Below, piece by piece: positions 10,770-24,899 of a DNA stretch of 64,000 nt. This stretch comes from a virus. Both the position numbers and the translations under genes were made by a program. The number at the start of each line of letters is the position of its first letter. Position 1 is the stretch's first letter. The notes under the pieces were generated by a model that worked only from the letters and a program-made list of their open reading frames with translations, was not told the origin of the DNA and ran no database searches. Location of the stretch: the IMG/VR virus record IMGVR_UViG_3300030106_006480, positions 10,143 to 74,142 of that record. One strand, written 5' to 3'.

Positions 10770-10793
10770 GGTGTCCGTCGGACTAGGGTTGAA

Positions 10794-10821
10794 TAGGCAG
10801 TTTTACGTCATACCCAGGACG
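10794..10821 (-). ncRNA. Family A pseudoknot element, copy 1
   Basis: minus: CGTC-CTGGGTAT-GACG-TAAAAC-TGCCTA. Confidence 0.7.
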
Positions 10822-10851
10822 ATCCCGTCAGAAGAGATAAATGCAGTCTAC

Positions 10852-11673
10852 TTAGAAGGGAGCTGGAGCACCATCTTCCATAACAGATCCTGATGGATCA
10901 GGTAGATCAGGAAGACCAGTTAAGTTAGAACCATAAGGTTCTGCTTGTGGTTTAGATTCTTGTTCCATATCAGCCCATAGCGAGCCTGGCTTCATTCCTT
11001 CAGACATAACTGTCTTTGTTTCAGGAGCTTTGTTTTGCCCATCTCTATCTGCTGGGGGCAAAGTCATCTTATCAACTTGAATTTTGACACGACTTTGCCA
11101 GTTACCTTGTTTATCTTTCCAACTGTCACATACCAGTTTGCCACTAATAGTAATTCCTTTCCCCTTCTTTGTTAGCTTGCACATCCAGTCTGCAAGTTTA
11201 TATCGATCATCTGGATTACTAATTGCATAGACATTAAATAAATCACTTTGTCCTTTACCTGTTGTAACTGCAATAGTTTGATTACAAATTATCAAACCAG
11301 TCGAGGTAATTTTAAATTGACGTTCATCAGAATCATCAACTGTTTTAATTGTGGTTCCAGAAAGAATAACTTGATTGTATGGCCTGAAAGCTTGTTTCAG
11401 AATAGTAGGAAATCCTCCATGAATAGAATGTAGTTTTGATTGAAGATCATGGCGGAGGTTAGCTCCTTGAATATGAATTGGATCATTAACTTGAACAGTG
11501 TCATGCAACTCTTTACCAGTTGCTCCATAGCACCAGTATTCCAAATCAAGATCTGATTTAGAAGGACCGGACTTTGGAATCAAAATAGGAAAGACATAAG
11601 CCTTGGATGTGTTGCTTGTATAAACCTCACGAGGTTTTTCAAGCACTTGGGCACAAACGGTAAGTACGTTCAT
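10852..11673 (-). CDS. ssb: Single-stranded DNA-binding protein (tandem OB folds)
   Basis: NQVILSG, KKGKGITISGKL..DSWKDKQG; acidic C-terminus ending APF. Confidence 0.8.
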   Translation of the reverse strand: MNVLTVCAQVLEKPREVYTSNTSKAYVFPILIPKSGPSKSDLDLEYWCYGATGKELHDTVQVNDPIHIQGANLRHDLQSKLHSIHGGFPTILKQAFRPYNQVILSGTTIKTVDDSDERQFKITSTGLIICNQTIAVTTGKGQSDLFNVYAISNPDDRYKLADWMCKLTKKGKGITISGKLVCDSWKDKQGNWQSRVKIQVDKMTLPPADRDGQNKAPETKTVMSEGMKPGSLWADMEQESKPQAEPYGSNLTGLPDLPDPSGSVMEDGAPAPF

Positions 11674-11694
11674 GATAGTTAGGTGTGTTGTGAT

Positions 11695-11724
11695 TGAAGC
11701 AGTTTAAGGTCATACTTCAGGACC
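11695..11724 (-). ncRNA. Family A pseudoknot element, copy 2 (5' leader of ssb)
   Basis: minus: GGTC-CTGAAGTAT-GACC-TTAAAC-TGCTTCA. Confidence 0.75.
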
Positions 11725-11729
11725 GTCAA

Positions 11730-13541
11730 TCAATGAACATCAAACCAAGTTTTACCAACTTTGGCATCACCTTCAATTGGACAAAGGAAGTTAAAATGTT
11801 CACCTGATTGAATAAAAGCTTTAAGAATATTTTCTTTTACAATTTCAATGTTTTGTTTAGGACAAGAAAGTTCTATTTCATCATGGATCATTGCATGTTG
11901 ATGATAATCAATACCGTAAACAAGACCAGCTTCTATTAAATTGTTATGAGTATTGATAACAACTTGCTTCATTAAAACAGCACCAGCAGCTTGGAGTAAT
12001 ACGTTTAGTGCTTTGAAATCAGAACGACAAAACAATGGACGTTTATCTAAACCAATTAAAAAGCCACGAGCCTGTAATGTTTTGGCAAGTGTATCTTTCA
12101 ATGCTTTAATAGCAGGAATACCAGTCATAAAAGAATCAATTGCATTTTTACCAAGTTGTTTTAACTTGTTTATATCTTTCTCATTTGGATCAACAATAGT
12201 ACCTGCCTTAGCTGATCCACAACCATAAAGAACTGCATAAAGCAAACGCTTACTAATATCTCTAGTTTTTACACCAAACTTTTCTTGGTTATAAATATGA
12301 ATGTCAGTGTCATCATCAATAACTAACTTGCTGTATTCACCTTCATCCCAATACGCAAGATACCCAGCCAAACATCTAAGTTCGAGAGCTTTTGCATCGC
12401 TGCCAATAAGGAACCAGTCGTCAGGAGCATGGAAAAGAGAACGACATTCTTTCCCATAAGGACTATAAGCTGCCGGAGTTTGGGCAGTGTTCGGATTACG
12501 ATGTGAGCAACGGCCAGTAATACAACCATTAGTAATAACGTCCCCATGTATATAACCATCAGGAGAGACAAGCTTGAGCCAAGCGTTGGTACCACTTTGA
12601 ATTTGGCCTAAACGTTTTTTAATTAACATGTATTCTGCCAAAGGCTGAGCTTCTGGATATGGAAGATTTTCTAAAACATCGTCATTCAAGATTGGATTAC
12701 CTTTCTCAGTTAGTTTCTCAGGAGTCCAATTATATTTATCTTTAAATCTTTGAATAATATGAGCACGAGAGTTTGGATTAAAAACTGTAACAGAATCTTT
12801 TAAACGTTTACCTGTACGTTCTGACCAACGTTCTTCAACAATTGGAGGAAAGATTTCTTTTAATTTATCTTCGATTTGCTTGCTGCGTACTGATAATTTA
12901 TCCACAAGAGACAAAGCTGCATCAGTATCAAAAGGAAAACCTGATCGAATTTGTCTCTCAATACATGTAGCAAATTCATGTTCAAGCGCAAGCGATTCCG
13001 AGTGGATAGATTGTTGTTGAATAAGTTGTAATAATTTTGTCGTAACGTTGACATCTTGAATGCAATAGGCAAGCATTTCTTCTGAAAATTCAGAGAAATC
13101 TTGGAAGTCAATCTTCTTATCTGAGAGTCTATAGCCCCATGCTTTGAGGCTAGCTGAACCTCTAAGTTTATTTGGGAGACGGTAGTATATCTCACTGTCC
13201 AGTTCTTCAAGTTTTTCTTTGGGCCAAATGAGTCTGGTGCAGATGAGTGTGTCAATGATTTGTAAAGCAGGGGAATTAAATAATTCAAAGCCAGGCCAAA
13301 GTTTCTTTAGCACTGGAATGTCATAAAACAAAATGTTATGTCCAATCAAACAATCAGCGGCAGCCAAATGATCAAGAGCATCAGTAATGCGATCAGGCCC
13401 ATAGCTAAAAGTTTGTTTTCTATTGAAGTCATATATGACGATACAGAAAATTTCTGTAACTTCATCATATAATCCATTTGATTCAATATCAAATACGAAC
13501 CAGTTTTCATGTTTGGTACCGGGCTTCAGGTTGAACATCAA
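11730..13541 (-). CDS. polA: Family A DNA polymerase (T7-like, with 3'-5' exonuclease)
   Basis: Exo motifs FDIESNG, GHNILFYD, YCIQDV; motif A DAKALELR; motif B RDISKRLLYAVLYG; motif C IHDE. Confidence 0.97.
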   Translation of the reverse strand: MMFNLKPGTKHENWFVFDIESNGLYDEVTEIFCIVIYDFNRKQTFSYGPDRITDALDHLAAADCLIGHNILFYDIPVLKKLWPGFELFNSPALQIIDTLICTRLIWPKEKLEELDSEIYYRLPNKLRGSASLKAWGYRLSDKKIDFQDFSEFSEEMLAYCIQDVNVTTKLLQLIQQQSIHSESLALEHEFATCIERQIRSGFPFDTDAALSLVDKLSVRSKQIEDKLKEIFPPIVEERWSERTGKRLKDSVTVFNPNSRAHIIQRFKDKYNWTPEKLTEKGNPILNDDVLENLPYPEAQPLAEYMLIKKRLGQIQSGTNAWLKLVSPDGYIHGDVITNGCITGRCSHRNPNTAQTPAAYSPYGKECRSLFHAPDDWFLIGSDAKALELRCLAGYLAYWDEGEYSKLVIDDDTDIHIYNQEKFGVKTRDISKRLLYAVLYGCGSAKAGTIVDPNEKDINKLKQLGKNAIDSFMTGIPAIKALKDTLAKTLQARGFLIGLDKRPLFCRSDFKALNVLLQAAGAVLMKQVVINTHNNLIEAGLVYGIDYHQHAMIHDEIELSCPKQNIEIVKENILKAFIQSGEHFNFLCPIEGDAKVGKTWFDVH

Positions 13542-13737
13542 GATTAGTTCCAGGGAAAATGTTATTTTTATTGATCCAGTTTAGAACTTCCATTGCCTCT
13601 GTTTTTGTAGGAAAACAAAGAGCATGTTTAAGATCTGCGCGAGACTTGATATCAAAAAGAAGAAAACAATTTTCTTTTTTGTTAGCGCCAATACACTTAA
13701 TCTTGTCCGGGTCTTGGAAAGAAATTACATAAGACAT
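13507..13737 (-). CDS. Hypothetical protein
   Basis: ORF overlapping the polA start. Confidence 0.55.
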   Translation of the reverse strand: MSYVISFQDPDKIKCIGANKKENCFLLFDIKSRADLKHALCFPTKTEAMEVLNWINKNNIFPGTNLDVQPEARYQT

Positions 13738-13785
13738 TTGAAATAATTAAGGGACGAAATAAGATTATCTCGTCCCAGAAAAAAG

Positions 13786-14547
13786 TCAAGCTTTTTGTCT
13801 ATGCATTTTGTTGTATCCATTGATTCCATTTTTCTTGAGGACAGAAACAGCTTTGCTTGCTGAACTGCCTGCACGCTGAACACCATGAATCAATAAAGCA
13901 AAGGGTTTATCACCAAAACAATGGGAATCATCATGATCTATTTCTAGACCAAGTTGATCTGCTTCTTCTTGTGAATAAACTACTTGAGCAGTGCGCTTGA
14001 AAACATCTGGATTTTCTGTAACCAAATGATCTAACTCACCACCAAGAGAAGCAGTAAGATAAAGATTAGAAGGCAAGTGATCCTTATAATGAAGCCAATA
14101 ATTAAGCGACTTTGTATAGGCATAGAATTTAATTTCGGGAAAGACACCAGCAGTTAGAATCCATGAACGAAAGTAAGCATCGCTAAACATATCACCTGCT
14201 TCATGGATCCGAAACAATTCGTAATTACGATGAGACTGTCTGATTGAATCCATGACAAGCATAGAAATTAGCAGAGCATCTTCACCGCATTGTTTTGTAA
14301 TAGCTTCGTAGTTATGCCAACGCAATTGACGGCATTGTGGAGACCGAGCTTCAGACATTGCAGCAAAACAACGGTAATCAATTTGATCACCTTTTGGTTT
14401 GTCTAAAATCTTACCTGTCTCACGATTAGCAAAAGTGCGACAGACACCAGCTCTTGGACAAGAATAGCCAGCTGGAATGGAAAAGATGAAACGATCATCT
14501 AGCTTTCCGTTGGAATAGGAAAACTTGAGAAGCTTTGTGAATTGCAT
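13786..14547 (-). CDS. Phage Gp88-like (Fe-S/radical-SAM-like) protein
   Basis: FSIPAGYSCP..GVC...CFA, RIHEAGD, FYAYTK, PSNL motifs. Confidence 0.7.
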   Translation of the reverse strand: MQFTKLLKFSYSNGKLDDRFIFSIPAGYSCPRAGVCRTFANRETGKILDKPKGDQIDYRCFAAMSEARSPQCRQLRWHNYEAITKQCGEDALLISMLVMDSIRQSHRNYELFRIHEAGDMFSDAYFRSWILTAGVFPEIKFYAYTKSLNYWLHYKDHLPSNLYLTASLGGELDHLVTENPDVFKRTAQVVYSQEEADQLGLEIDHDDSHCFGDKPFALLIHGVQRAGSSASKAVSVLKKNGINGYNKMHRQKA

Positions 14548-14571
14548 AGTGAAATGTAATAAAGTGAAATA

Positions 14572-14598
14572 CTGGGGCTTACACCAAAGGATGCCCAG
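14572..14598 (-). ncRNA. Family B hairpin element, copy 1
   Basis: minus: CTGGG-CAT-CCTTTGG-TGTAAGC-CCCAG. Confidence 0.65.
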
Positions 14599-14603
14599 GA
14601 ATT

Positions 14604-15002
14604 TTAAAGCTGGTGCTTTTCAAATTCAATATGGTTCAAGACTTGTTTTGCTTTCCAGACAGCAGCCTCACCAATAAAGAATTCAACGTTACAACCAAGA
14701 GCTTTAGATGCTGTTTTAATATCTTTCATTTGTTCGCCAGAAAACTTAAGTGTTTTTTGATGATTAAAAGTTGCTGATCTATCTGTAATAAAAGATCTAT
14801 TTTCTTCAATCCATTTATCTACTTCTTGTTTGTTATAGAAATGTTCTCTACGTGAACTAATTTCTAAATCAGGAGTTGGAAACGTATTATTTTTTACTTT
14901 CTTATATAGAGTGTAACGAGACATAAGAGTCTTACTTAAGACTTCTTTTGCTGAATAGCATTTGCTACGGCGTTCACGAAAAAGCTGAGCTTTAGATGGC
15001 AT
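14604..15002 (-). CDS. AlpA-like HTH regulator with C-terminal extension
   Basis: KEVLSKTLMSRYTLYKKVKNNTFP...EVDKWIE; start moved to MPSKAQ at 15002. Confidence 0.65.
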   Translation of the reverse strand: MPSKAQLFRERRSKCYSAKEVLSKTLMSRYTLYKKVKNNTFPTPDLEISSRREHFYNKQEVDKWIEENRSFITDRSATFNHQKTLKFSGEQMKDIKTASKALGCNVEFFIGEAAVWKAKQVLNHIEFEKHQL

Positions 15003-15040
15003 AGTTGATGAAAAGGAGAATGACTTGTAGAATAAAGGAA

Positions 15041-15092
15041 CGTTCACCTCAATGCGAGGCGCAATTCATCCGGCCAGGGAACGGGGACCGGA
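15041..15092 (+). promoter_or_regulatory. Glutamine riboswitch class II (Downstream-peptide motif)
   Basis: CGTTCA-CCTC.AATGC.GAGG-CGCA...TCCGG...GGAACGGGGA-CCGGA; P1 CGTTC/GAACG; pseudoknot TCCGG/CCGGA; TAGAAT -10 box at 15028-15033; YRG peptide downstream. Confidence 0.85.
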
Positions 15093-15110
15093 GTATTAGC
15101 GGAGGACACC

Positions 15111-15260
15111 ATGTCTAACGAGACACTCACTTATCGTGGCGTTAAGTATAAGCGCGGCGATATCATGACAACTTGGATGATGAACGAAAAACTGAAGCGT
15201 CAGCGTGAAGAGTTTGAAGCAAAGCTCGATCGTTTACGCCAAAAAGGAGAGATTGTTTAA
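15111..15260 (+). CDS. DUF4278-like YRG peptide (49 aa, absent from ORF track)
   Basis: MSNETLTYRGVKYKRG...; GGAGGA Shine-Dalgarno at 15101-15106. Confidence 0.85.
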   Translation: MSNETLTYRGVKYKRGDIMTTWMMNEKLKRQREEFEAKLDRLRQKGEIV

Positions 15261-15484
15261 GCCCAAGGCCAACCTAGTTCAACGTCTGCTTGCCAGATAT
15301 CTGGATCAATAGGACGCTGCTTTACATACAAATTAAATAGGCGTTGCATTTCTTCTAATGTGACGCCTACTTTTTTTGCTATAACAGCTATGTTGGTCTG
15401 GCCTTTGTAGACAAGATCAAGAGCATCTTCAAGCGATATGTTTCCATGTTTTCCGTTTGACAATGTCATGAATACAGCCTTCAC
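15257..15484 (-). CDS. Small HTH-like protein
   Basis: IAVIAKKVGVTLEEMQRLF. Confidence 0.5.
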   Translation of the reverse strand: MKAVFMTLSNGKHGNISLEDALDLVYKGQTNIAVIAKKVGVTLEEMQRLFNLYVKQRPIDPDIWQADVELGWPWA

Positions 15485-15791
15485 TTACACCATATATTTT
15501 ACTCAATTCTCTTTGAGCTTTTCCCTCTGCCCATTCACGTCTTATTTGAATTACATTTGAATCAAACAAGATTGCATTAGGATGCTTTTCACCTGTATTA
15601 AAACCTCCATGTTTTCGTTTAGGCGGAGGATTCCAGTGAACACCAGCATCATCTAATACTTCAGTGCTTCGCCAATGATGATTACATTTTAGACAACGAT
15701 AGTAACGTCTAGTCACATAGTCTCCTTGATGAGTGGACATAACTTTTGTCCCTGTTTTTGATTGTGCATAACATTTAGGACAATTCATCAA
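15429..15791 (-). CDS. NrdR-type Zn-ribbon plus HTH protein
   Basis: CPKC...RRYYRCLKCNHHWRSTE; GEKHPNAIL...LSKIYGVSEGCIHDIVKRKTWKH. Confidence 0.65.
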   Translation of the reverse strand: MMNCPKCYAQSKTGTKVMSTHQGDYVTRRYYRCLKCNHHWRSTEVLDDAGVHWNPPPKRKHGGFNTGEKHPNAILFDSNVIQIRREWAEGKAQRELSKIYGVSEGCIHDIVKRKTWKHIA

Positions 15792-16495
15792 TCTTTACTC
15801 CACATAGTTTCAGAAATAATTGGAAACTGTTCTTTAAAAATTGTTTTACATTGTTCTGCAATTTCTTTATGCTCTAGTTGCGTACCATTTCCTGTACGCA
15901 AGTCAATGTAATGCATCCAAGATTTTAAAGGGCCTGTCATATACATACGAGTAGGACAAGCAAGAGGCAGGATAGACCTGGCACATTCTTTGGCAACACC
16001 ATCGCTAACCATCTCTTGATAGAGATGTTCAGCATCTTCAAACAAAATACTAATGCGTCTGTAGTAATCAGTAAGTTTGCCTTTACCCAATCGACTTGGC
16101 AAATCATCAATTGAATTCTGACGATTTTTAAGATCTTGTCCTCTCAAGTGAGGAATAATTGGCTTACCCATCTCACCAGTATTTGCATAGCGTTGAGAGA
16201 ATTCTTGGAACGAGAATGTCCAGTGCCTTAGTATCTGAGGGCTGATGGCCCTGGTGGTATTGATCTCAAGGCACATAGATGCCATTTCAAAAGGAGACCA
16301 ATGCTTTTGTTTAATTAAATAACGGAGAAGCTTTGGAGCAGTCTCCATGTTGTCTTGATTCTTGGGAGCAGAAACGCGTGCCATATGGACAATCATTTCT
16401 TCAGCATTTGGAGTAGTCCAAATGAGTTTGACAGAAGGATTTTGAAAAGGCATTGATTGTTTATTTAGTTTGGATTGGGGCAAGCCGATGACCAA
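15788..16495 (-). CDS. thyX: FAD-dependent thymidylate synthase
   Basis: HWSPFE, QILRHWTFSFQEFSQRY, AKECARSILP, TQLEH; likely start MPFQN at 16453. Confidence 0.95.
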   Translation of the reverse strand: MVIGLPQSKLNKQSMPFQNPSVKLIWTTPNAEEMIVHMARVSAPKNQDNMETAPKLLRYLIKQKHWSPFEMASMCLEINTTRAISPQILRHWTFSFQEFSQRYANTGEMGKPIIPHLRGQDLKNRQNSIDDLPSRLGKGKLTDYYRRISILFEDAEHLYQEMVSDGVAKECARSILPLACPTRMYMTGPLKSWMHYIDLRTGNGTQLEHKEIAEQCKTIFKEQFPIISETMWSKD

Positions 16496-16742
16496 GATAA
16501 TCTTCTGTGCGTGAGGTGTAGTCCCATTGAACTACATAATGACAAAAGACTGCACCAGCACGGTTCTTTTTTTCTATAATGTTTTTAACCGTACCAACAC
16601 GGTCAAGTATTTTGTCTTTACCGTGATACACATTTCGATGTGTGACACGATCACCAATGGAAAATGCTTGAGATTTGCGTAGAGACATGATGAATAAAAA
16701 AATCCTCAGCCAGCGCAAACCAACTGAGGATGAATCGTCCAA
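16461..16742 (-). CDS. Small SH3-like hypothetical protein
   Basis: FSIGDRV...GTV...YVVQWD; likely start MSLRK. Confidence 0.5.
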   Translation of the reverse strand: MDDSSSVGLRWLRIFLFIMSLRKSQAFSIGDRVTHRNVYHGKDKILDRVGTVKNIIEKKNRAGAVFCHYVVQWDYTSRTEDYLGHRLAPIQTK

Positions 16743-16754
16743 GTAGATATTAGA

Positions 16755-17108
16755 TCAAGAAGCTGCGATGTCAATTGCAGAGAGATCAACTCCTGCTTTT
16801 TCCATCTTGCTTAACATTTCAACCATGATGTTTGCATTCTCCTGGGTCTTAGCCATGAAAGCTTTAGAACGTTCAGCACTCATTGTGTGAACAGTCCCAT
16901 TGGCTTCCTTGTATGCCCAGGAGCCATCAGGTTGCATCTCCCCTTGGGTAATAGCCATACGCTCGCTGTTGCGGGTATAGCGAACCTGTAGGTTACGAAC
17001 ATCTGTTAAACCATCTTGATCAACCCAGGTAAGACCAAGGTTGTAAAGATTGTTGTCATCCATATAGCCATGAGGCTGAGGGATGAGGTGCTTGATTGCT
17101 CCAAACAT
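16755..17108 (-). CDS. Hypothetical protein
   Basis: Start moved to MFGAIK because the longer ORF overlaps the tRNA. Confidence 0.65.
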   Translation of the reverse strand: MFGAIKHLIPQPHGYMDDNNLYNLGLTWVDQDGLTDVRNLQVRYTRNSERMAITQGEMQPDGSWAYKEANGTVHTMSAERSKAFMAKTQENANIMVEMLSKMEKAGVDLSAIDIAAS

Positions 17109-17132
17109 GATGAAATGAAATGTGATTAGGTT

Positions 17133-17221
17133 TGGTGAGAGTGGTGGGACTTGAACCCACATAGCCATTACTGACCGACAGATTTTAAGTCTGTTGCGTC
17201 TACCAATTCCGCCACACTCTC
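17133..17221 (-). tRNA. tRNA-Leu(TAA), CCA encoded
   Basis: GAGAGTG/CACTCTC acceptor stem, GGAATTGGTAGAC D-arm, ACAGA-CTTAAAA-TCTGT anticodon arm, long variable arm, GGGTTCAAGTCCC T-arm, ACCA end. Confidence 0.95.
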
Positions 17222-17225
17222 GTTG

Positions 17226-17262
17226 CTAGGACTTACACCGTGTCAAGGGACCGGATGCCTAG
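17226..17262 (-). ncRNA. Family B hairpin element, copy 2 (4 nt upstream of the tRNA)
   Basis: minus: CTAGG-CAT-CCGGTCCCTTGACACGG-TGTAAGT-CCTAG. Confidence 0.7.
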
Positions 17263-17268
17263 TCGTAT

Positions 17269-19068: not shown

Positions 19069-19098
19069 GATTTAGTGTAGTGTGATGTGTTGTAAAAG

Positions 19099-19138
19099 AT
19101 TGGGACTTACATGCAGTCGGGGAAATGCAATGCCCAAT
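19099..19138 (-). ncRNA. Family B hairpin element, copy 3
   Basis: minus: ATTGGG-CAT-TGCA...TGCA-TGTAAGT-CCCAAT. Confidence 0.7.
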
Positions 19139-19141
19139 AGA

Positions 19142-19516
19142 TTAGAACTCGATGCAGTCTGGATCGTCTGCAACCCAATCAAGATCTAGTTGATCTAAGA
19201 ATTGAATTTGTTCTGGTTGAGAACCGTCGATAGGAGGTGGTAACTCTCCTTCTTCTAGTTCAAAACACGCACTACAGACTGCTGGACCATATTCAGCAGG
19301 ATGGGCAAAATCTGCTGGATGGTAAGTTGCAGGAATTGTTTGAACCATGTCAGCAATCTCGGCAACAGAGATCCAAGAAGATGTTCCATGTTCATCGACA
19401 AGATCAAGTTCAATAGAGCGGACATAAAGAATTTCAGTCATTAGAGTTGATGTTAAGGATTTGGACCGCCGCATTTGATAATGCTTCGGCTTGGTCAAAA
19501 TACTTGTTCCACTCAT
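19142..19516 (-). CDS. Acidic hypothetical protein (likely start MTEILY)
   Basis: ORF with HPAEYGPAVC motif. Confidence 0.6.
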   Translation of the reverse strand: MSGTSILTKPKHYQMRRSKSLTSTLMTEILYVRSIELDLVDEHGTSSWISVAEIADMVQTIPATYHPADFAHPAEYGPAVCSACFELEEGELPPPIDGSQPEQIQFLDQLDLDWVADDPDCIEF

Positions 19517-19635
19517 TAGAACCGATTGGGTACTGTTGTGCCTCAGTTCTTTTGGTATCTGCTATACCTGATACAGTTTGATAAGCAACCATCAAAGTTT
19601 GGTGATCCATAGTGAAGTGTAGTGTGATGTGGACA

Positions 19636-19663
19636 TAGACAGTTTAAGGTCTTATCTAGGACC
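19636..19663 (-). ncRNA. Family A pseudoknot element, copy 3
   Basis: minus: GGTC-CTAGATAA-GACC-TTAAAC-TGTCTA; minus-strand TATAAT just upstream. Confidence 0.7.
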
Positions 19664-19763
19664 ATGTAAGGGTATTAATTATAAGTATTATTGATTAGTA
19701 GATGTCCCCCCTTGGTAGCCCCCTGGGGGGTGCAGGGGGGGTACCCATTGAGATATTCCATAT

Positions 19764-20132
19764 TTAGATGTGTTCTGGTTTTAGATTAAACTTTTGAATT
19801 GCATCATCCGTTGCTTCTTGATCGCCATCGAGGACGACCAGTCCGCGTATACGATTGGATGCTGCATGCCAAATATAACTAGTGCAGTCATATCGCTCAG
19901 TATCTTTCCCATCAACTACAACAGTGATGGGATACTGTCCAGTCTCGATCTTAGGAGGGATTGTCTTGTCATTAGTAATGATACTGATTAGATCAAACCC
20001 TGCCTTGTCATGGATCTCTCCATGTAGATAGATACCGTCCAGGCCGTAGAAAAGCTCTCCGTCTTTTAAGTGTTTACGATTGAGGGTACCAAAACCTTCT
20101 GCATACCAAGTGGGTTTCATTAGTCTGACCAC
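19764..20132 (-). CDS. Hypothetical protein
   Basis: Early-region ORF. Confidence 0.55.
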   Translation of the reverse strand: MVRLMKPTWYAEGFGTLNRKHLKDGELFYGLDGIYLHGEIHDKAGFDLISIITNDKTIPPKIETGQYPITVVVDGKDTERYDCTSYIWHAASNRIRGLVVLDGDQEATDDAIQKFNLKPEHI

Positions 20133-20410
20133 ATGTCAGGTTTCTTATTGTATTCAGGAAGATCTGGTGTTTCTTCTGGTTTCAAGTCAGGAGGACTGAG
20201 CTTTGGAAGATCACAGATTTTAATGTTGCGTTTGCTGAGGCCGGTTCCGGGGATCCCCACAGATCCACGGATGCCGGACTCTCTTGCATTTAGAGTGAGC
20301 TGGAACGGACCAAGTTTGAATGACTTGGAGAATGATTGTGGGCCACGTTCTGTGAAGTTGATGCCTGCAATCGTCTTGTCAAAGTTGATTGCGCTGCGTT
20401 TGCGTGTCAT
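20120..20410 (-). CDS. DUF4236-like protein
   Basis: SKSFKLGPFQLTLN...GSVGIPGTGLS. Confidence 0.6.
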   Translation of the reverse strand: MTRKRSAINFDKTIAGINFTERGPQSFSKSFKLGPFQLTLNARESGIRGSVGIPGTGLSKRNIKICDLPKLSPPDLKPEETPDLPEYNKKPDMWSD

Positions 20411-20428
20411 GATTTTGAATTGAAATGA

Positions 20429-20632
20429 TTAGTAAGTGATCCTGTAGTGTGTATATCCTGCAGGACGTTTCCGAAGTTTCTCGAATAAAGCTTCAGCTTC
20501 TTTACGAGTATCAAATGAACCATGGTATTTGTAGTGACTATCTATCCAACACTTTTGAATACCGTTAGCTCTTGCTACATAGGATTCTTTAATCAAATAC
20601 TCTTCAACTTTGAAATGTTTGAGGTCTGTCAT
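20429..20632 (-). CDS. Hypothetical early protein
   Basis: ATGA-coupled small ORF chain. Confidence 0.55.
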   Translation of the reverse strand: MTDLKHFKVEEYLIKESYVARANGIQKCWIDSHYKYHGSFDTRKEAEALFEKLRKRPAGYTHYRITY

Positions 20633-20820
20633 GATTCAAGATCCTCTTTGAAGATAAATCCTTTAGCTCTAGCTTTATCTTTAATCTTCTTATCTTGTAT
20701 ATCTTTACCGTGCATATAGCTTTCGACTGATTGTCCAGGTTTTGGGCCTCTTGTTGGAAGTTTAGTAACTTTGTATTCAGTTGCAGGAACCCAGCTTTGT
20801 TTAGATCGTTTGCGTGTCAT
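20629..20820 (-). CDS. Basic hypothetical early protein
   Basis: Coupled ORF; shares MTRKRS N-terminus with 20120..20410. Confidence 0.55.
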   Translation of the reverse strand: MTRKRSKQSWVPATEYKVTKLPTRGPKPGQSVESYMHGKDIQDKKIKDKARAKGFIFKEDLES

Positions 20821-21032
20821 GATGAAGCGTTTGGATAGAGTTGATTGTAGATTGAAACTGTATTGCGATGGAGTGAGTTAACTCGCATAAAGTTAGCTTC
20901 AAGCCATTCGTGTAATGCAATTTCAATAACTCGGGATTCTTCAACCCCGAGTATGTCTGACAACAGTTCAATCATTTGCTGATCGATCTGTGTGATTGGG
21001 GTTACCTTGTAGTTTGATGGGTCAGTCATCAA
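20817..21032 (-). CDS. Hypothetical (ribbon-helix-helix-like) protein
   Basis: Coupled ORF; LSDILGVEESRVIEIALHEWL. Confidence 0.5.
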   Translation of the reverse strand: MMTDPSNYKVTPITQIDQQMIELLSDILGVEESRVIEIALHEWLEANFMRVNSLHRNTVSIYNQLYPNASS

Positions 21033-21219
21033 GAATTTGCTCTGCTAGTTGTTGCATTTTTGTCTCTGCATCTTTCCACTTGTTCAAGTAATACTGCTCT
21101 TCCTCTGGTGTATCAGAGTTGAGCATCATTGCATGGTAAGTGGTGCATTGACGAAATTGTTTTGTGAAGGGATCTTCACCCCACGGCTCTGGTTGCTCCA
21201 GAAGAATTGAAGATGACAC
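21022..21219 (-). CDS. Hypothetical early protein
   Basis: Coupled ORF. Confidence 0.5.
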   Translation of the reverse strand: MSSSILLEQPEPWGEDPFTKQFRQCTTYHAMMLNSDTPEEEQYYLNKWKDAETKMQQLAEQILDD

Positions 21220-21388
21220 GATTCTTTTGAGTGTAGATACGAATGTGTTTTAGGACAGTAGAGTCACTGATGCCATACTTCATTGCTATTTCTTTAGCTG
21301 ATAAGCCTACGAAATAGTATTGATAAGCAGCTTCAGCGATCTCTTCAGGCAGCATGGAGTAACCTCCTTTGATGTACTTTCTGGGCAT
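21176..21388 (-). CDS. HTH DNA-binding protein (sigma region 4-like)
   Basis: YYFVGLSAKEIAMKYGISDSTVLKHIR. Confidence 0.65.
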   Translation of the reverse strand: MPRKYIKGGYSMLPEEIAEAAYQYYFVGLSAKEIAMKYGISDSTVLKHIRIYTQKNRVIFNSSGATRAVG

Positions 21389-21394
21389 TGAGTC

Positions 21395-21601
21395 TTAGCT
21401 GTCGTGTGAAGGAAGTTCAGGGAAGTTAGGATCATCAGGATCCATATTGGTTTTGTAATGGACTGAACCATCTGGTGAGACAAAGCCAGCCATGTACTTA
21501 CCACCTGCATTCTCAGCTATTTCAGCAAATTTTGCGGTGAGCCTCATGAACTGAAGTTTTTGAGAATCAGGAACATTCTCTGGAGTGATGTCTTTAGACA
21601 T
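21395..21601 (-). CDS. Hypothetical early protein
   Basis: ORF in operon. Confidence 0.55.
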   Translation of the reverse strand: MSKDITPENVPDSQKLQFMRLTAKFAEIAENAGGKYMAGFVSPDGSVHYKTNMDPDDPNFPELPSHDS

Positions 21602-21646
21602 GATGAATTAATAAGCAATGATAAGTTTTACTAATGTGTTAATGAG

Positions 21647-21916
21647 TTAAGACCAGTAGTCTTTTCTGCATCTGAATTGAAGCATCTCGTAAGTCCAGCT
21701 GCTTCCTTCAAAGTCAACAATGGTTTTCATTGCTGCTTGAACTGCAGACCAGTCTTCTGGACGTGAGGGGCATACAGACATGTACTGCACACAAGCAGCG
21801 TCAAGTTTGTTCCATGCTTCTTTCCAAGCATCATCATCAAACTCGGGTTCTGTTGGCATCTCACGGCCCTTCTCTTCAAAGTAAGGACCAAAGATGTCTT
21901 TGATTGTTTCAAGCAT
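21647..21916 (-). CDS. Hypothetical early protein
   Basis: ORF downstream of a family B element. Confidence 0.6.
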   Translation of the reverse strand: MLETIKDIFGPYFEEKGREMPTEPEFDDDAWKEAWNKLDAACVQYMSVCPSRPEDWSAVQAAMKTIVDFEGSSWTYEMLQFRCRKDYWS

Positions 21917-21941
21917 AGATTTTGGTGTAGTAAAGGAAAAG

Positions 21942-21972
21942 TACTAGGACTTACGCTGTAAGCTGCCTAGTA
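21942..21972 (-). ncRNA. Family B hairpin element, copy 4
   Basis: minus: TACTAGG-CA-GCTTACAGC-GTAAGT-CCTAGTA. Confidence 0.7.
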
Positions 21973-21986
21973 GTTGTGTTACTTAA

Positions 21987-22358
21987 TCAACAGTAATAAA
22001 CAGGTTCAGTGGGATAATGCCTGGCATAGTCATCACCAAACGTGATATCAATAGCAGTTAATCCTCTGCTGTCGCTAATCAAAGGTTGGTCTTGGTAGTC
22101 GTATCCAATTGAGAGACGGATTGCTTCTTTGATTGCTTGCTTCTTACTGAAGACAAAGATCGTGTTAAGCGGTTCGCCTTCTTCGTACCACCATCCACCT
22201 TCTTCTGGCCCACCATATTTTTGCCAAGTGTTGTGGACTTGGATGGTGATTGGATCTTGGTTGTCGAACTCTTTGTACCAGTTGTAGATGTTGATCCAGT
22301 ACCTTGCGTATCCTGTTTTGGGATACTGTTTGGTGTAGGTTTTGAGTGAATTAGACAT
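21987..22358 (-). CDS. Conserved phage early protein (YGGPEEGGWWY motif)
   Basis: YGGPEEGGWWYEEG motif; P..YYC C-terminus. Confidence 0.7.
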   Translation of the reverse strand: MSNSLKTYTKQYPKTGYARYWINIYNWYKEFDNQDPITIQVHNTWQKYGGPEEGGWWYEEGEPLNTIFVFSKKQAIKEAIRLSIGYDYQDQPLISDSRGLTAIDITFGDDYARHYPTEPVYYC

Positions 22359-22443
22359 CTGAAGTTGTTGTAAAGAACTGTACAGATAACAGTAATGATT
22401 ACAATGATGTGCAAGATGACATCATCGTTATTGTTGTCATGCA

Positions 22444-22638
22444 TTAGTTAGTTCCTCCATATTCTTTGTGATAGTCATCTTCGCCTGATACCGCTTCAGA
22501 CATAAGTTCTTGCATAAGTTGTTCTTGCTCATTAGCTATGTCGTTAAGGACAAATAACTGATCAGCAGTGTATTCAGACTTCTCCTGGTCATCGAAGTTG
22601 TCTTGTTGCTCATGGAGCCAAGTTTTGATAAGTGACAT
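22444..22638 (-). CDS. Acidic hypothetical early protein
   Basis: ORF downstream of a family A element. Confidence 0.55.
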   Translation of the reverse strand: MSLIKTWLHEQQDNFDDQEKSEYTADQLFVLNDIANEQEQLMQELMSEAVSGEDDYHKEYGGTN

Positions 22639-22663
22639 GATGCGTAGTGAAATAAGGTTTGCA

Positions 22664-22691
22664 TGAGCAGTTTAAGGACATGCTCAGGTCC
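22664..22691 (-). ncRNA. Family A pseudoknot element, copy 4
   Basis: minus: GGAC-CTGAGCAT-GTCC-TTAAAC-TGCTCA. Confidence 0.75.
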
Positions 22692-22876
22692 AAGTACTAA
22701 ATTTCGTCCATGCAGTCAGGCATGAAAGCAACGCATTCCTTGATTAGGTCTGAGTTGTTAAGGCATTTGAGAGACTCTTCAGTGTGAAAGTCATCGCTCA
22801 TATCTTCCTGACATTCAAGATAGCTATCGATCAGGATTTTGCGTTGAGCTTTGGTGATGTAGGTACTAGGCATAAT

Positions 22877-23074
22877 TTAGTTGTTGTGTGAAGTGTAGGG
22901 TTGAACTTCAATAGATTGAGCTTGAGTCTTCATTGTGTAGCTAACAGCGTAAACACCGGCCACAACAAGAAGGACACAAGAGATACAACCAACAATCCAG
23001 GTAGGAACATCTGATTTGTAGTAAGAGTCAAGACAGACGTATCTGTTTGAACCAAGCTTGATGATTTGTTTCAT
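22877..23074 (-). CDS. Small membrane protein
   Basis: One hydrophobic segment. Confidence 0.5.
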   Translation of the reverse strand: MKQIIKLGSNRYVCLDSYYKSDVPTWIVGCISCVLLVVAGVYAVSYTMKTQAQSIEVQPYTSHNN

Positions 23075-23460
23075 GATTTGGTGAGCCAGTGATCCTGGAC
23101 TTGTTGTGTGAGTTTAAAGTTGTTGAGTTTGACTTTAATCTGCACGTCATCCCATACGTTGGTTGGTACACAAACTGTCTTGGTTTCAGATTGACCATCA
23201 ACGATGATCATTTCTCTGTACCAGTTTGTTTCCCTATTTCTGGGATAAGCAATGACGATGGCTCTATAGTCATCGCCTGCAGATAATACCATCCATTCCT
23301 TGTCACGAGCAGCAAGGATAGCTTGTTCCTGGAGCTGTTTAGTAGATGGATGGGTCGGGAGAGATGAATCGTGCAAGACTTCGTCGTGCATTGTTGAATC
23401 CATGTTTGATGTTGTCTTTGGTTGGGACTTTGGCATCACCGATGAGGTCACCGATGTCAT
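23071..23460 (-). CDS. Hypothetical early protein
   Basis: Coupled ORF. Confidence 0.5.
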   Translation of the reverse strand: MTSVTSSVMPKSQPKTTSNMDSTMHDEVLHDSSLPTHPSTKQLQEQAILAARDKEWMVLSAGDDYRAIVIAYPRNRETNWYREMIIVDGQSETKTVCVPTNVWDDVQIKVKLNNFKLTQQVQDHWLTKS

Positions 23461-23639
23461 GAAGAAGACTCTTTGTCTTCTTCCTTAGTTTGAATTGAGT
23501 CATTGTCAGAGAATGCATAGAGTGTAACCATGAATGCTCCTGTGGCAATACCAATAGGAGACATTCCAAGAAGTGCGGCACCACCTAGCAAAGCTGCTGT
23601 GATGCCTACTGATTGTCGCTTAGTCTTGTCCATTGTCAA
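23457..23639 (-). CDS. Small membrane protein
   Basis: Gly/Ala-rich hydrophobic segments. Confidence 0.5.
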   Translation of the reverse strand: MTMDKTKRQSVGITAALLGGAALLGMSPIGIATGAFMVTLYAFSDNDSIQTKEEDKESSS

Positions 23640-23654
23640 GATAAGAAACGTTTG

Positions 23655-23710
23655 AGCAGGATATAGAGTCCTGCAGAGAAGGCCCGTAGGCCCTCAGTGC
23701 AAGAGTCAGT
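23655..23710 (-). ncRNA. Intergenic hairpin with alternative pairing (element D)
   Basis: minus: TCTTGCA-CT-GAGGGCC-TACG-GGCCTTC-TC-TGCAGGA, followed by competing GCAGGA...TCCTGC. Confidence 0.55.
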
Positions 23711-23909
23711 TAGCTAAGTAACGGATATGCATGCAGTGTTTAGCATCACCTACCCATGAACGCATAGTAACCAAACGATGATAGTCAGGTTGCTTCAGGC
23801 ATTCCTGGGTAGCAATCTTATTCAGATGTTTCTGCCCTGCTACGCAAAGCAAAGCACCGATACCAACACCTGCAATGATGGCAGTGATAGGAGTGAGAGG
23901 AGAACGCAT
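23706..23909 (-). CDS. Small membrane-anchored protein
   Basis: Start moved to MRSPLTP; N-terminal transmembrane segment. Confidence 0.55.
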   Translation of the reverse strand: MRSPLTPITAIIAGVGIGALLCVAGQKHLNKIATQECLKQPDYHRLVTMRSWVGDAKHCMHIRYLAN

Positions 23910-23928
23910 GATGTGTGATGTAATAGAG

Positions 23929-23995
23929 ATGCCACGGGATTGTGGCAATAACTGCCGGAGGGTTTGCACCTCCGGACCCGCTTTAACGGATCAGT
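23929..23995 (-). ncRNA. Family C tRNA-like element, copy 1
   Basis: minus: ACTGA-T-CCGTTAAAGCGG-GT-CCGGAGG-TGCAAAC-CCTCCGG-CAGTTAT-TGCCAC...GTGGCA. Confidence 0.7.
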
Positions 23996-24203
23996 CTTTA
24001 TCAGAGAAATAACCGACTGCTATGCCAATGGCACCGCAAATCACAAATGTAATGGGATGAGTGGTCATAAACTCCCACTGCCAGTGATAGAACATACGCA
24101 CAGGAGGTAGCGTAAGATACATTGCAAAAGCTAGTAAACAACCAAGGACTGCACCAACTAAAGTTGCACCCAAGGTAGACAGCTTTTCAAATGAAGTGAA
24201 CAT
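23991..24203 (-). CDS. Small two-TM membrane protein
   Basis: Two hydrophobic helices. Confidence 0.55.
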   Translation of the reverse strand: MFTSFEKLSTLGATLVGAVLGCLLAFAMYLTLPPVRMFYHWQWEFMTTHPITFVICGAIGIAVGYFSDKD

Positions 24204-24225
24204 AGTTTAGTGTTTGAAACAATAG

Positions 24226-24290
24226 ATGCCACTTGATTGTGGCAATAGTTGAGTAGGGGATTCGATCCCCCGGCATCACGCCTGGTCAGA
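24226..24290 (-). ncRNA. Family C tRNA-like element, copy 2
   Basis: minus: CTGA..GGCGTGATGCC-GGGGGA-TCGAA-TCCCC...CTAT-TGCCAC...GTGGCA. Confidence 0.6.
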
Positions 24291-24476
24291 TGACCATCTC
24301 AACTGGAGATTCCATCATCTCCACAAAGGAGAGAACAGATATCTCTGAGTAGCCACACTCTTCTGGGTGACCTTCGTAGTTATGTTCGACCGAAAGATCG
24401 AACGCAACCGAGTCGGCCTCCTCCTTAGAGAAGTGTGCGCTGTGTTGTTGACCGTTGAGGATGACGAAGAACACGT
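24286..24476 (-). CDS. Acidic hypothetical early protein
   Basis: Probable GTG start (VFFVIL) after GGAG; the longer ORF-track version runs through element C3. Confidence 0.5.
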
Positions 24477-24496
24477 CAGTCGCTCCGAGTGTGCGG

Positions 24497-24568
24497 TACC
24501 TATCTCCGCTGTAGGTAATAACTGGTGGGGGCATTGCACCCCCACTGGCCGCTTGAACGGACTCAGTT
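24497..24568 (-). ncRNA. Family C tRNA-like element, copy 3
   Basis: minus: AACTG-AGT-CCGTTCAAGCGG-CCA-GTGGGGG-TGCAATG-CCCCCAC-CAGTT-AT-TACCTA...TAGGTA. Confidence 0.7.
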
Positions 24569-24844
24569 GACTTGAGCAACAATAGTTACTGCTCTACCAC
24601 CAAACTCTGGGCTATTGAACATCTTCATGCCTAACTTTGCGTCAGCCATGAATTCAATCAATGCCTTGTAAAGAGCACGGCAGTATTTCATCTGCTCTCG
24701 TTGTTGATCAGAATCATTAGCCAATAGCCAAGTCATCTGTCCTTCAGCAACAAGATAATCAACTGTTTGCAAGATATCTTCTTGGTCAACCGCTGCGTTA
24801 GCGTTGGCTTTCCAATCAAATTTCCAGCTGGTTTGAGTTTGCAT
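24563..24844 (-). CDS. First gene of the early arm, hypothetical
   Basis: ORF preceded by CACTTCACTTCATC leader and element A5. Confidence 0.6.
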   Translation of the reverse strand: MQTQTSWKFDWKANANAAVDQEDILQTVDYLVAEGQMTWLLANDSDQQREQMKYCRALYKALIEFMADAKLGMKMFNSPEFGGRAVTIVAQVN

Positions 24845-24866
24845 GATGAAGTGAAGTGAGTGGACT

Positions 24867-24895
24867 GCTACGGTTTAACGTCCATCAGCTAGACG
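24867..24895 (-). ncRNA. Family A pseudoknot element, copy 5 (divergent)
   Basis: minus: CGTC-TAGCTGATG-GACG-TTAAAC-CGTAGC. Confidence 0.55.
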
Positions 24896-24899
24896 AACT

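What the first reader, a model, noticed from the sequence alone, without database searches (positions are those of the whole stretch)
10794..24895. An intergenic structured-RNA system across the early arm: at least 13 elements in three repeated families plus one singleton
Seen: most sizeable spacers on the minus-strand early arm carry one of three recurring folds (A pseudoknot x5, B asymmetric-loop hairpin x4, C tRNA-like junction x3) or a switch-like hairpin (D). Most have the same layout: upstream stop codon, then the element, then a CACAT/CACTT-rich leader lacking a Shine-Dalgarno, then ATG. I saw none in the late arm. Stems covary while loops stay fixed, which points to selection on structure rather than simple duplication. 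Inference: this is a post-transcriptional control layer for long early transcripts, such as processing sites, 5' stabilisers against RNase J/E, or binding sites for a phage protein. It would be analogous to T7 RNase III sites but built from different folds.
Basis: partly seen in the sequence, partly recalled or inferred. Interest (0 to 1): 0.9.

Follow-up and report, generated by a model that had tools for sequence, protein, structure and literature searches.

The report
Interchangeable folded RNA modules between cyanophage genes
This marine cyanophage separates its early and replication genes with small, strongly conserved folded RNA modules of at least four kinds, none catalogued; one matches a plant-virus RNA knot that stops RNA-degrading enzymes, so they probably shield the separate messages, which is untested.

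Summary
Covariance models and comparison with other phage contigs confirm 12 of the 13 reported elements. All lie on the minus strand of the early arm:
- 4 H-type pseudoknots (PK)
- 4 bulged hairpins (HP; GGCA, variable hairpin, G-UAAGY-CC)
- 3 three-way junctions (C) whose closing helix contains the upstream UGA stop codon
- 1 bistable hairpin (D)

The fifth "pseudoknot" (24867-24895) is not supported. None matches Rfam, and the late arm has none.

Each module starts 0-7 nt after (family C: on) a stop codon. Each ends 20-32 nt before the next AUG, followed by a G-poor leader without a Shine-Dalgarno sequence.

PK and HP replace each other in front of the same four orthologous genes in relatives, including the cultured Synechococcus phage S-EIV1. 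This points to one shared job.

PK is widespread in IMG/VR, in about 30 cultured phage records, and rare in bacterial genomes. It shares stem 1, the loop-1 cytosine and the UUAAACU linker with the Xrn1-resistant "coremin" knot of RNA viruses.

Best reading (about 45%): roadblocks against 5'-to-3' decay (RNase J, RNase E scanning) that cap each translational unit. No RNA data were available, so function is inferred.

This scan has already reported the same families on other DNA.

The parts
22664..22692 (-). PK copy 1: H-type pseudoknot (stem 1 GGAC/GUCC, loop-1 C, stem 2 UGAGCA/UGCUCA, linker UUAAAC). It starts 5 nt after a UAG stop, and the AUG at 22638 lies 25 nt downstream.
   Evidence: R1 51.9 bits, E 6e-13; spacer sequence
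19636..19664 (-). PK copy 2 (stem 1 GGUC/GACC, stem 2 UAGAUA/UGUCUA). A 25-nt G-poor leader leads to the AUG at 19610.
   Evidence: R1 42.1 bits, E 4.5e-10
11695..11725 (-). PK copy 3, 5 nt after the PolA stop and 21-22 nt before the SSB AUG.
   Evidence: R1 35.9 bits, E 2.8e-8; Pfam SSB and DNA_pol_A
10794..10822 (-). PK copy 4 (stem 1 CGUC/GACG, linker UAAAAC), upstream of the DUF5895 gene.
   Evidence: R1 35.8 bits, E 3.1e-8
24867..24895 (-). Doubtful fifth PK in the 5' leader of the first early gene. It has the hairpin CGUC/GACG and the linker UUAAAC, but only a shifted 4-bp stem 2.
   Evidence: Not found by R1 at E<=10; no conserved counterpart
21944..21970 (-). HP copy 1: outer stem CUAGG/CCUAG, then CA, an inner hairpin, G and the bulge UAAGU. 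The AUG lies 27 nt downstream.
   Evidence: R2 32.2 bits, E 1.3e-7
19100..19137 (-). HP copy 2, 4 nt after a UAA stop and 31 nt before the AUG of the PcfJ-like gene.
   Evidence: R2 26.3 bits, E 8.9e-6
17226..17262 (-). HP copy 3, ending 4 nt before the 5' end of tRNA-Leu.
   Evidence: R2 32.4 bits, E 1.1e-7; ARAGORN and Rfam tRNA
14572..14598 (-). HP copy 4 (minimal form), 5 nt after a UAA stop and 24 nt before the AUG of the GP88-like gene.
   Evidence: R2 43.1 bits, E 5.2e-11
24493..24567 (-). Family C copy 1. The closing helix includes the UGA stop (24563-24565). It is followed by hairpin H1, hairpin H2 (loop UGCAAUG) and an H3 pseudoknot variant.
24227..24290 (-). Family C copy 2. H1 is GGC/GCC, H2 has a T-arm-like loop AUCGAAU, and H3 is GCCAC/GUGGC. 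A leader of about 23 nt leads to the AUG at 24203.
23930..23996 (-). Family C copy 3. The closing helix lies on the UGA stop at 23991-23993. H2 has the loop UGCAAAC and H3 is GCCAC/GUGGC. The AUG is at 23909.
   Evidence: fold z = -4.2; covariation
23656..23705 (-). Element D. It starts directly after the UGA stop. The middle strand UGCAGGA pairs either with an upstream strand or a downstream strand. A 22-nt leader leads to the AUG at 23633.
   Evidence: z = -5.2; homologues and compensatory changes
22401..22428 (-). Conserved hairpin in the 85-nt spacer 22359-22443. The spacer is truly intergenic; the overlapping 121-aa ORF has no homologues.
13751..13776 (-). Terminator-like hairpin with a U-rich tail after the GP88-like gene.
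   Evidence: z = -5.0; terminator scan
17133..17221 (-). tRNA-Leu (anticodon UAA), embedded in the early arm.
15005..15369 (+). Antisense unit: a promoter-like site, a Glutamine-II riboswitch (15038-15093), a 49-aa ORF (15111-15260) and a terminator-like hairpin.
   Evidence: Rfam 54.2 bits against a gathering score of 33

Best explanation
The early/replication arm is read as long mRNA divided into translational units. Between units lies a compact cassette: a stop codon, a small pre-folded RNA module (PK, HP, C or D) and a G-poor, Shine-Dalgarno-less leader of 20-32 nt before the AUG.

The modules are interchangeable cis-acting RNA structures. I propose that they act as mechanical roadblocks or caps. 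They would stop enzymes moving 5' to 3' along the RNA, namely the exonuclease RNase J and 5'-end-dependent scanning by RNase E. Each downstream unit would then keep a defined, protected 5' end and an open leader.

Shown: the structures, their conservation and covariation, their placement, and their interchangeability.

Inferred: the direction of protection and the enzymes involved.
For: Evidence that these are RNA-level structures:
- PK stem 2 and stem 1 covary, with 23 U-G wobbles that would be A-C mismatches on the other strand.
- HP strict matches number 145, against 1 in reversed-sequence controls.
- Family C is 99% paired with many compensatory changes, including in its unselected closing helix.

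Strand and place:
- All copies run in the same direction as the flanking genes.
- 64 of 122 HP copies start 2-7 nt after a stop, and 56 of 122 end 25-32 nt before an AUG. The commonest PK-to-AUG distance is 22 nt.
- Leaders hold 8-9% G and CUCAAC repeats, with almost no Shine-Dalgarno sequence.

Interchangeability:
- In front of SSB and DUF5895, the window and S-EIV1 have PK while L005 and L007 have HP.
- In front of GP88, the window, L005 and L007 have HP while S-EIV1 has PK.
- In front of the PcfJ-like gene, the window and L005 have HP while S-EIV1 and L033 have PK.

Conservation: the modules are islands of nucleotide identity among diverged small early genes.

Resemblance to a tested roadblock:
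- PK shares with coremin (xrRNA-C and its Watson-Crick variant) a 4-bp stem 1, a loop-1 cytosine, a penultimate loop A and the linker UUAAACU.
- Coremin stalls Xrn1 and scanning ribosomes in vitro (PMC6546385, PMC10520033, PMC10321173).

Distribution:
- PK occurs in phages of Lactobacillus, Staphylococcus, Rhizobium, Roseobacter-group bacteria, crAss-like phages and Synechococcus.
- It gave no match in 28 Gb of E. coli genomes.
- By my own knowledge, this fits hosts that have RNase J.
- In phages phig1e and StB12, PK lies upstream of the scaffold and capsid genes.
Against: - No RNA ends, half-lives or nuclease assays exist for any copy, and no RNA sequencing run holds this phage.
- HP, C and D have no known roadblock relative. 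Their role is inferred only from shared position and swapping.
- PK lacks the second hairpin that coremin needs, and its loop differs at the 'G6' position.
- The tight spacing to the upstream stop codon fits protection of the upstream 3' end equally well.
- The link between host range and RNase J rests on a BLAST search that sees only near-consensus copies, and on my recollection of where RNase J occurs.
Confidence: 0.45

Rival explanations
1. The modules are processing or 3'-end punctuation signals. They would be cut by, or would halt, host enzymes (RNase E, RNase III, RNase P/Z, or 3' exonucleases). The upstream message would then end in a protective structure, as at T7 RNase III sites or in the mitochondrial tRNA-punctuation model.
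For: - The modules begin 0-7 nt after the stop codon.
- Family C has a T-arm-like hairpin and starts on the stop codon.
- One HP abuts a real tRNA.
- A genuine tRNA occupies an equivalent intergenic slot.
Against: - HP helices (9-13 bp) are too short for RNase III (my own knowledge).
- Neither ARAGORN nor the Rfam tRNA model accepts the C elements.
- The spacing to the downstream AUG is as tight as that to the stop.
- A plain GC-rich hairpin would be enough to block 3' exonucleases, yet unpaired nucleotides are strictly conserved.
Confidence: 0.2
2. The modules serve translation. They would bound an unstructured standby leader for 30S and S1 loading without a Shine-Dalgarno sequence. They would also stop terminating ribosomes from sliding into the next unit, so each unit is initiated independently.
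For: - The module-to-AUG distance is fixed at 20-32 nt, about the upstream edge of a 30S footprint. Leaders are G-poor and CA-rich.
- Modules occur only where genes do not overlap.
- Coremin blocks scanning ribosomes.
Against: - In Firmicutes phages, PK lies 64-144 nt upstream of genes.
- In Roseophage SIO1 it lies 290 nt before the next gene.
- Late genes of this phage manage without modules.
Confidence: 0.15
3. The modules are operators for an RNA-binding protein, from phage or host. An example would be autoregulation of SSB, as at the T4 gene 32 pseudoknot.
For: - A PK precedes the SSB gene here and in S-EIV1.
- Unpaired nucleotides are conserved (UUAAAC, UAAGU, UGCAAAC).
Against: - The same PK precedes many unrelated genes.
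- In L005 and L007 the SSB gene has HP instead.
- PK occurs in phages with no shared gene set.
Confidence: 0.05
4. The modules act at the DNA level. They would be conserved linkers that promote recombination and shuffling of small early genes, like the promoter-early stem-loop cassettes of T4-type phages. Alternatively they would be promoters or priming sites.
For: The modules are nucleotide-identity islands, up to 100% over 47 nt, between unrelated small ORFs.
Against: - G-U wobbles and compensatory changes point to selection on the folded sense strand.
- The HP halves are separated by 4-40 nt, which rules out a fixed duplex site.
- Promoter-like sites are not enriched: 30 found against 44 expected.
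- Shuffling may be a side effect of conservation rather than the function.
Confidence: 0.05
5. The modules are small self-cleaving ribozymes, or recoding signals for frameshift or read-through.
For: - They are independent of host and carry conserved unpaired nucleotides.
- PK has the build of luteovirus frameshift knots and sits 5 nt after stop codons.
Against: - No Rfam ribozyme matches at E<=5.
- The downstream AUG is in frame with the upstream stop in only one third of cassettes. Slippery heptamers occur in 2 of 21 PK and 2 of 64 HP cassettes.
Confidence: 0.05

Closest known systems
Coremin motif (xrRNA-C) and its Watson-Crick variant xrRNA-WCC of beny-, cucumo- and other RNA viruses (PMC6546385, PMC10520033, PMC10321173)
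   Same: - A short stem 1 of 4 bp, with GACG in some copies.
- A single loop-1 pyrimidine (C).
- A conserved A before the last loop base.
- The linker UUAAACU, then a stem 2 formed by loop and linker.
- A compact H-type knot, sometimes placed between genes.
   Different: - PK occurs in DNA phages of bacteria, not RNA viruses of eukaryotes.
- Stem 2 is 6 bp, against 0-3 bp.
- No second hairpin follows.
- The loop base after loop 1 is U rather than G.
- The target enzyme cannot be Xrn1.
- Resistance to any nuclease is untested.
Luteovirus -1 frameshift pseudoknots (BWYV, PLRV), as compared in PMC10321173
   Same: Same dimensions. Loop-1 C lies in the stem-2 groove and an A-rich loop lies along stem 1.
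   Different: There is no slippery site and no frame relation. PK sits after stop codons, between genes.
RNase III processing sites of T7 early mRNA (own knowledge)
   Same: Repeated intercistronic hairpins with an asymmetric internal loop in a long early transcript.
   Different: HP is only 9-13 bp. The bulge sequence is conserved and the module is widespread. Cleavage has not been shown.
Promoter-early stem-loop (PeSL) cassettes of T4-type phages (Arbiol et al. 2010, own knowledge)
   Same: Conserved intergenic motifs that flank variable small early genes.
   Different: There is no promoter signal. Covariation shows selection on RNA folding.
PPR10-type barriers at chloroplast intercistronic regions (Pfalz 2009, Prikryl 2011; own knowledge)
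   Same: A block placed some tens of nucleotides upstream of a start codon defines processed ends by stopping exonucleases, in a lineage related to cyanobacteria.
   Different: There the barrier is a bound protein. Here it would be the RNA fold itself.
T4 gene 32 mRNA leader pseudoknot
   Same: A pseudoknot upstream of the phage SSB gene.
   Different: It is not specific to SSB. The sequence is unrelated, and HP replaces it in relatives.

Membership tests
Coremin / xrRNA-C (including xrRNA-WCC) | 5' hairpin (hp1) of 3-5 bp whose pairing is required | tested here: met
   Stem 1 is 4 bp and 99% paired, with AU/UA exchange in 20 of 69 sequences. CGUC/GACG and UGUC/GACA variants occur in the window and in S-EIV1.
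Coremin / xrRNA-C (including xrRNA-WCC) | Loop rule YG(N)nAD, with an irreplaceable first loop pyrimidine | tested here: inconclusive
   The first loop base is C in at least 90% of sequences, and the penultimate A is invariant. The second base is U (paired in stem 2) rather than G.
Coremin / xrRNA-C (including xrRNA-WCC) | Conserved spacer GUUAAACUAC, with A16-A20 essential | tested here: inconclusive
   UUAAACU is identical and nearly invariant. The next two bases differ and belong to stem 2, as in the WCC variant.
Coremin / xrRNA-C (including xrRNA-WCC) | Second hairpin (hp2) directly after the spacer | tested here: not met
   No conserved hairpin follows. A G-poor unstructured leader follows instead.
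Coremin / xrRNA-C (including xrRNA-WCC) | Stalls a 5'-3' exoribonuclease | not testable with these tools
   This needs an RNase J or Xrn1 assay. No RNA runs were available.
Any Rfam 15 family | Match at the gathering score, or at E<=5 | tested here: not met
   Only tRNA-Leu and Glutamine-II (plus strand) match; nothing matches on the elements.
tRNA or tRNA-like structure (family C) | Cloverleaf with acceptor stem, anticodon arm and CCA or a discriminator | tested here: not met
   ARAGORN and Rfam find only the real tRNA-Leu. C has a 3-4 bp closing helix and two hairpins, one with a T-loop-like 7-nt loop.
RNase III site of the T7 type (family HP) | About two helical turns of duplex with an internal loop | tested here: not met
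   The outer stem is 5 bp and the inner stem is 3-9 bp.
-1 frameshift or read-through stimulator | Slippery heptamer 5-9 nt upstream, or an in-frame open extension | tested here: not met
   Slippery heptamers occur in 2 of 21 PK and 2 of 64 HP cassettes. The downstream AUG is in frame in about one third.
PeSL cassette | Early promoter next to the stem-loop | tested here: not met
   Promoter-like sites number 30 against 44 expected, and none recurs at the modules.
Glutamine-II riboswitch (antisense unit only) | Rfam RF01704 at the gathering score, followed by a short ORF | tested here: met
   54.2 bits against 33; a 49-aa ORF starts 18 nt downstream.

The most novel reading that the evidence does not exclude
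PK, and by functional equivalence HP and C, would be the first exoribonuclease-resistant RNAs of the bacterial world. Under this reading, DNA phages across several phyla use the same knot as plant and fungal RNA viruses (coremin) to stop RNase J or RNase E scanning. Cyanophages of the S-EIV1 lineage have built a whole interchangeable toolkit of such caps, one per translational unit.
Probability: 0.3. Interest if true: 0.9.

Novelty: new variant of a known kind. Interest (0 to 1): 0.78.

Why it matters
Three or four uncatalogued RNA families would gain a testable role. They are conserved to the nucleotide across many uncultured marine phages, and PK also occurs in phages of Firmicutes, Alphaproteobacteria and Bacteroidota.

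If they block RNase J or RNase E, several things follow:
- They would show how phages shape the lifetime and stoichiometry of messages within one transcript.
- They would tie bacterial viruses to the xrRNA strategy of eukaryotic RNA viruses.
- They would give compact, portable mRNA-stabilising and insulating parts for cyanobacteria and Gram-positive hosts.

A cultured phage-host pair, S-EIV1 with Synechococcus PCCC-A2c, carries 7 PK and 2 HP copies, so the question can be tested directly.

Tried and rejected
- Near-identity search of the arm against GenBank phages: no match.
- Sequencing runs: 20 DNA holders from marine metagenomes, and no RNA holder listed.
- Rfam at E<=5: only chance-level snoU49 and MIR hits on the arm.
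- BLAST of a short HP query against cultured phages: only chance partial hits. The variable inner hairpin defeats BLAST.
- PK pattern in 596 Gb of bacterial genomes: 80 hits, of which 66 lack the pairings. This served as a negative control; 14 genuine copies (possibly prophage, context not checked) remain.
- Pfam on ten small early proteins and the riboswitch ORF: no family.
- Literature: no paper links xrRNA, RNase J and phage. The catalogue of 10,006 viral structured-RNA candidates (PMC10690425) and the Minerva preprint do not describe these motifs in their main text. S-EIV1 papers on hand do not mention them.
- Recoding was rejected.
- A sigma-70 promoter reading of PK was rejected. The hexamer-like strings are only 11 nt apart, and the scan shows no enrichment.
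- The G/C-rich 'pseudoknot' at 19700-19750 and the fifth PK were left unsupported.

Full report
**What the window is**

The window covers bases 10143-74142 of a 74-kb IMG/VR virus record. The stretch from 9.6 to 24.9 kb is a minus-strand arm. It holds many small ORFs followed by replication genes: a PcfJ-like protein, ThyX, an AlpA-type HTH protein, a GP88-like protein, DNA polymerase A, SSB and a DUF5895 protein. A strong terminator-like hairpin at 9511-9543 closes the arm.

The closest cultured relative is Synechococcus phage S-EIV1, with 61% PolA identity and a syntenic arm. The DNA is held by marine metagenomes. Together with a Glutamine-II riboswitch, this points to a marine cyanophage of the S-EIV1 lineage.

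**Checking the observation**

Printing every spacer of the arm in mRNA sense showed the recurring elements directly.

*PK.* A pattern scan of IMG/VR gave more than 118 loci, and 101 of 132 matches had at least 5 of 6 stem-2 pairs. The same pattern in 596 Gb of bacterial genomes gave 80 hits, of which only 14 had both helices. Chance matches therefore do not carry the fold, and the element is strongly enriched in phage DNA.

An alignment of 69 copies is 97% paired. It shows GC/AU/GU exchange at three stem-2 pairs and AU/UA exchange in stem 1. The covariance model R1 finds exactly four copies in the window, all on the minus strand; the next hit has E 0.53.

*HP.* A strict structural pattern gives 145 hits in 3.1 Mb of viral loci, against 1 in reversed-sequence controls. 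Outer stems vary (CUGGG, CUAGG, CUUGG, AUGGG, GUAGG, UUGGG) and inner hairpins range from 4 to 40 nt. Model R2 finds exactly four copies, all on the minus strand.

*Family C.* Three copies are present. Thirty-nine homologues give a three-way junction whose closing helix contains the UGA stop codon of the upstream gene. That helix was not used for selection, yet it is 97% paired and shows CG/GC/UA exchange. H2 shows four or five pair types per position around an invariant GG-UGCAAAC-CC.

*Element D.* It is conserved in about 16 contigs. In L010, compensatory changes keep both of its mutually exclusive helices.

*Unsupported.* The fifth 'pseudoknot' (24867-24895) and the G/C-rich structure near 19700 are not supported.

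Neither model finds anything in the late arm. Late-arm leaders are A-rich and of a different style. Rfam matches none of the elements.

**Anatomy of the cassette**

- Across loci, 64 of 122 HP copies start 2-7 nt after a stop codon that closes a same-strand ORF, and 56 of 122 end 25-32 nt before an ORF-opening AUG.
- PK peaks at 5-9 nt after the stop and 22 nt before the AUG.
- Family C starts on the stop codon itself, and D starts directly after it.
- The leaders hold 8-9% G and carry CUCAAC-type repeats. They almost never have a Shine-Dalgarno sequence.
- Cassettes occur where genes do not overlap. Within blocks, genes overlap stop to start.
- There is no frame relation across cassettes and slippery sites are rare (4 of 85 cassettes), so recoding is excluded.

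**The modules form one system**

HP copies turn up in many loci that were fetched only for their PK. C, D and the 22.4-kb hairpin recur in the same contigs, often in several copies. They form islands of nucleotide identity among diverged small genes.

PK and HP also replace each other in front of orthologous genes:

| Gene | PK | HP |
|---|---|---|
| SSB | window, S-EIV1 | L005, L007 |
| DUF5895 | window, S-EIV1 | L005, L007 |
| GP88-like | S-EIV1 | window, L005, L007 |
| PcfJ-like | S-EIV1, L033 | window, L005 |

This argues for one shared function.

**What it resembles**

Coremin is a 4-bp hairpin with a YG..AD loop and the spacer GUUAAACUAC, followed by a second hairpin. Its Watson-Crick variant forms a short stem 2 between loop and spacer. 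It stalls Xrn1 and scanning ribosomes and promotes frameshifting.

PK shares the 4-bp stem 1, the loop-1 cytosine, the penultimate loop A and the string UUAAACU. Some copies read GACGUUAAACU exactly. PK differs in having a 6-bp stem 2 and no second hairpin. This is a resemblance in sequence and build, not a shown function.

**Distribution**

PK occurs at unannotated intergenic places in the following cultured or named phages:
- Lactobacillus phages (phig1e, and others by BLAST)
- Staphylococcus phage StB12
- Rhizobium phages
- Roseophage SIO1
- Lentibacter and Celeribacter phages
- two crAss-like phages
- S-EIV1

In phig1e and StB12 it lies upstream of the scaffold and capsid genes.

No match was found in 28 Gb of E. 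coli genomes. By my own knowledge this fits hosts that have RNase J, but a proper census was not done.

**Mechanism**

The best-supported reading is a set of RNA roadblocks. They would cap each translational unit against 5'-to-3' decay and keep the leader open. A comparable known case is the protein barrier at chloroplast intercistronic regions.

The rivals remain open because no RNA data exist for this phage:
- protection or processing of the upstream 3' end
- insulation of translation
- protein operators
- recombination linkers
- ribozymes

**Earlier work in this scan**

Earlier follow-ups on other genomes reported the same PK family several times. They also reported the UAAGU-bulge hairpin family and 'interchangeable RNA roadblocks between cyanophage genes'. 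My results were obtained independently on this window and agree with them.

**Verdict**

The elements are uncatalogued and I found no published description of them. Function remains untested.

Noticed in passing
window 15005-15369 (+): A complete antisense unit lies inside the minus-strand arm. It has a promoter-like TTGATG-17-TAGAAT, a Glutamine-II riboswitch (54 bits), a 49-aa ORF with no Pfam family, and a terminator-like hairpin at 15338-15369. It is partly conserved in L005, L006 and L007.
   Followed up: partly
window 17133-17221 (-): tRNA-Leu (UAA) sits in line in the early arm, with an HP ending 4 nt before its 5' end. The ORF listed as 16755-17168 overlaps the tRNA, so its real start must lie further downstream.
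   Followed up: partly
window 23909, 23633, 24534/24474, 19441: Several mechanical ORF starts look wrong.
- The gene after C3 starts at AUG 23909, not GUG 23969.
- The gene after D starts at AUG 23633.
- The gene after C1 has an in-frame AUG inside the H2 loop (24534) and a GUG at 24474; which is used is unclear.
- The 124-aa ORF probably starts at 19441, overlapping the stop of a 58-aa ORF.
   Followed up: partly
HP leaders in many loci; window 14548-14571: ACUUA, the complement of the UAAGU bulge, occurs in 15 of 72 HP leaders against 4.7 expected by shuffling. It is not enriched in PK leaders. A bulge-leader pseudoknot is possible in a minority of copies. Relatedness of copies was not controlled.
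   Followed up: partly
window 24493-24520 (-) and homologues (L084, L253, L114, L044, L110): The third hairpin of family C comes in two forms. One is a plain hairpin, GCCAC-N6-GUGGC. The other is RCCUN-CAGCGGAGAU-NAGGY-ACCGC, whose loop GCGG can pair with the downstream CCGC to form a further pseudoknot type.
   Followed up: no
PK and HP consensus: PK and HP share the string CUGRGCAU. Both also have a UAA-containing single strand just 5' of the last helix strand. This could reflect common descent or a common partner.
   Followed up: no
window 25768-64000 (+) versus 9600-24900 (-): Early-arm leaders are C-rich and G-poor with CUCAAC repeats. Late-arm leaders are A-rich with weak Shine-Dalgarno-like GGAG. 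The early arm also has higher G+C (41-43% against 35-38%).
   Followed up: partly
L007 about 1290-1335, L241, L229 (upstream of the orthologue of window gene 22444-22638): Where the window has PK, these relatives carry a different element that ends in CGUAAGUCCCAG but lacks the usual CUGGGCA 5' half. It may be a further HP variant.
   Followed up: no
window 19700-19750 (-): A C-run/G-run segment upstream of PK copy 2 could form a large pseudoknot. Its fold is not better than shuffles (z = -0.3), and only the ACCCCCCUGCACCCCCC part recurs, in L106 and L013.
   Followed up: partly
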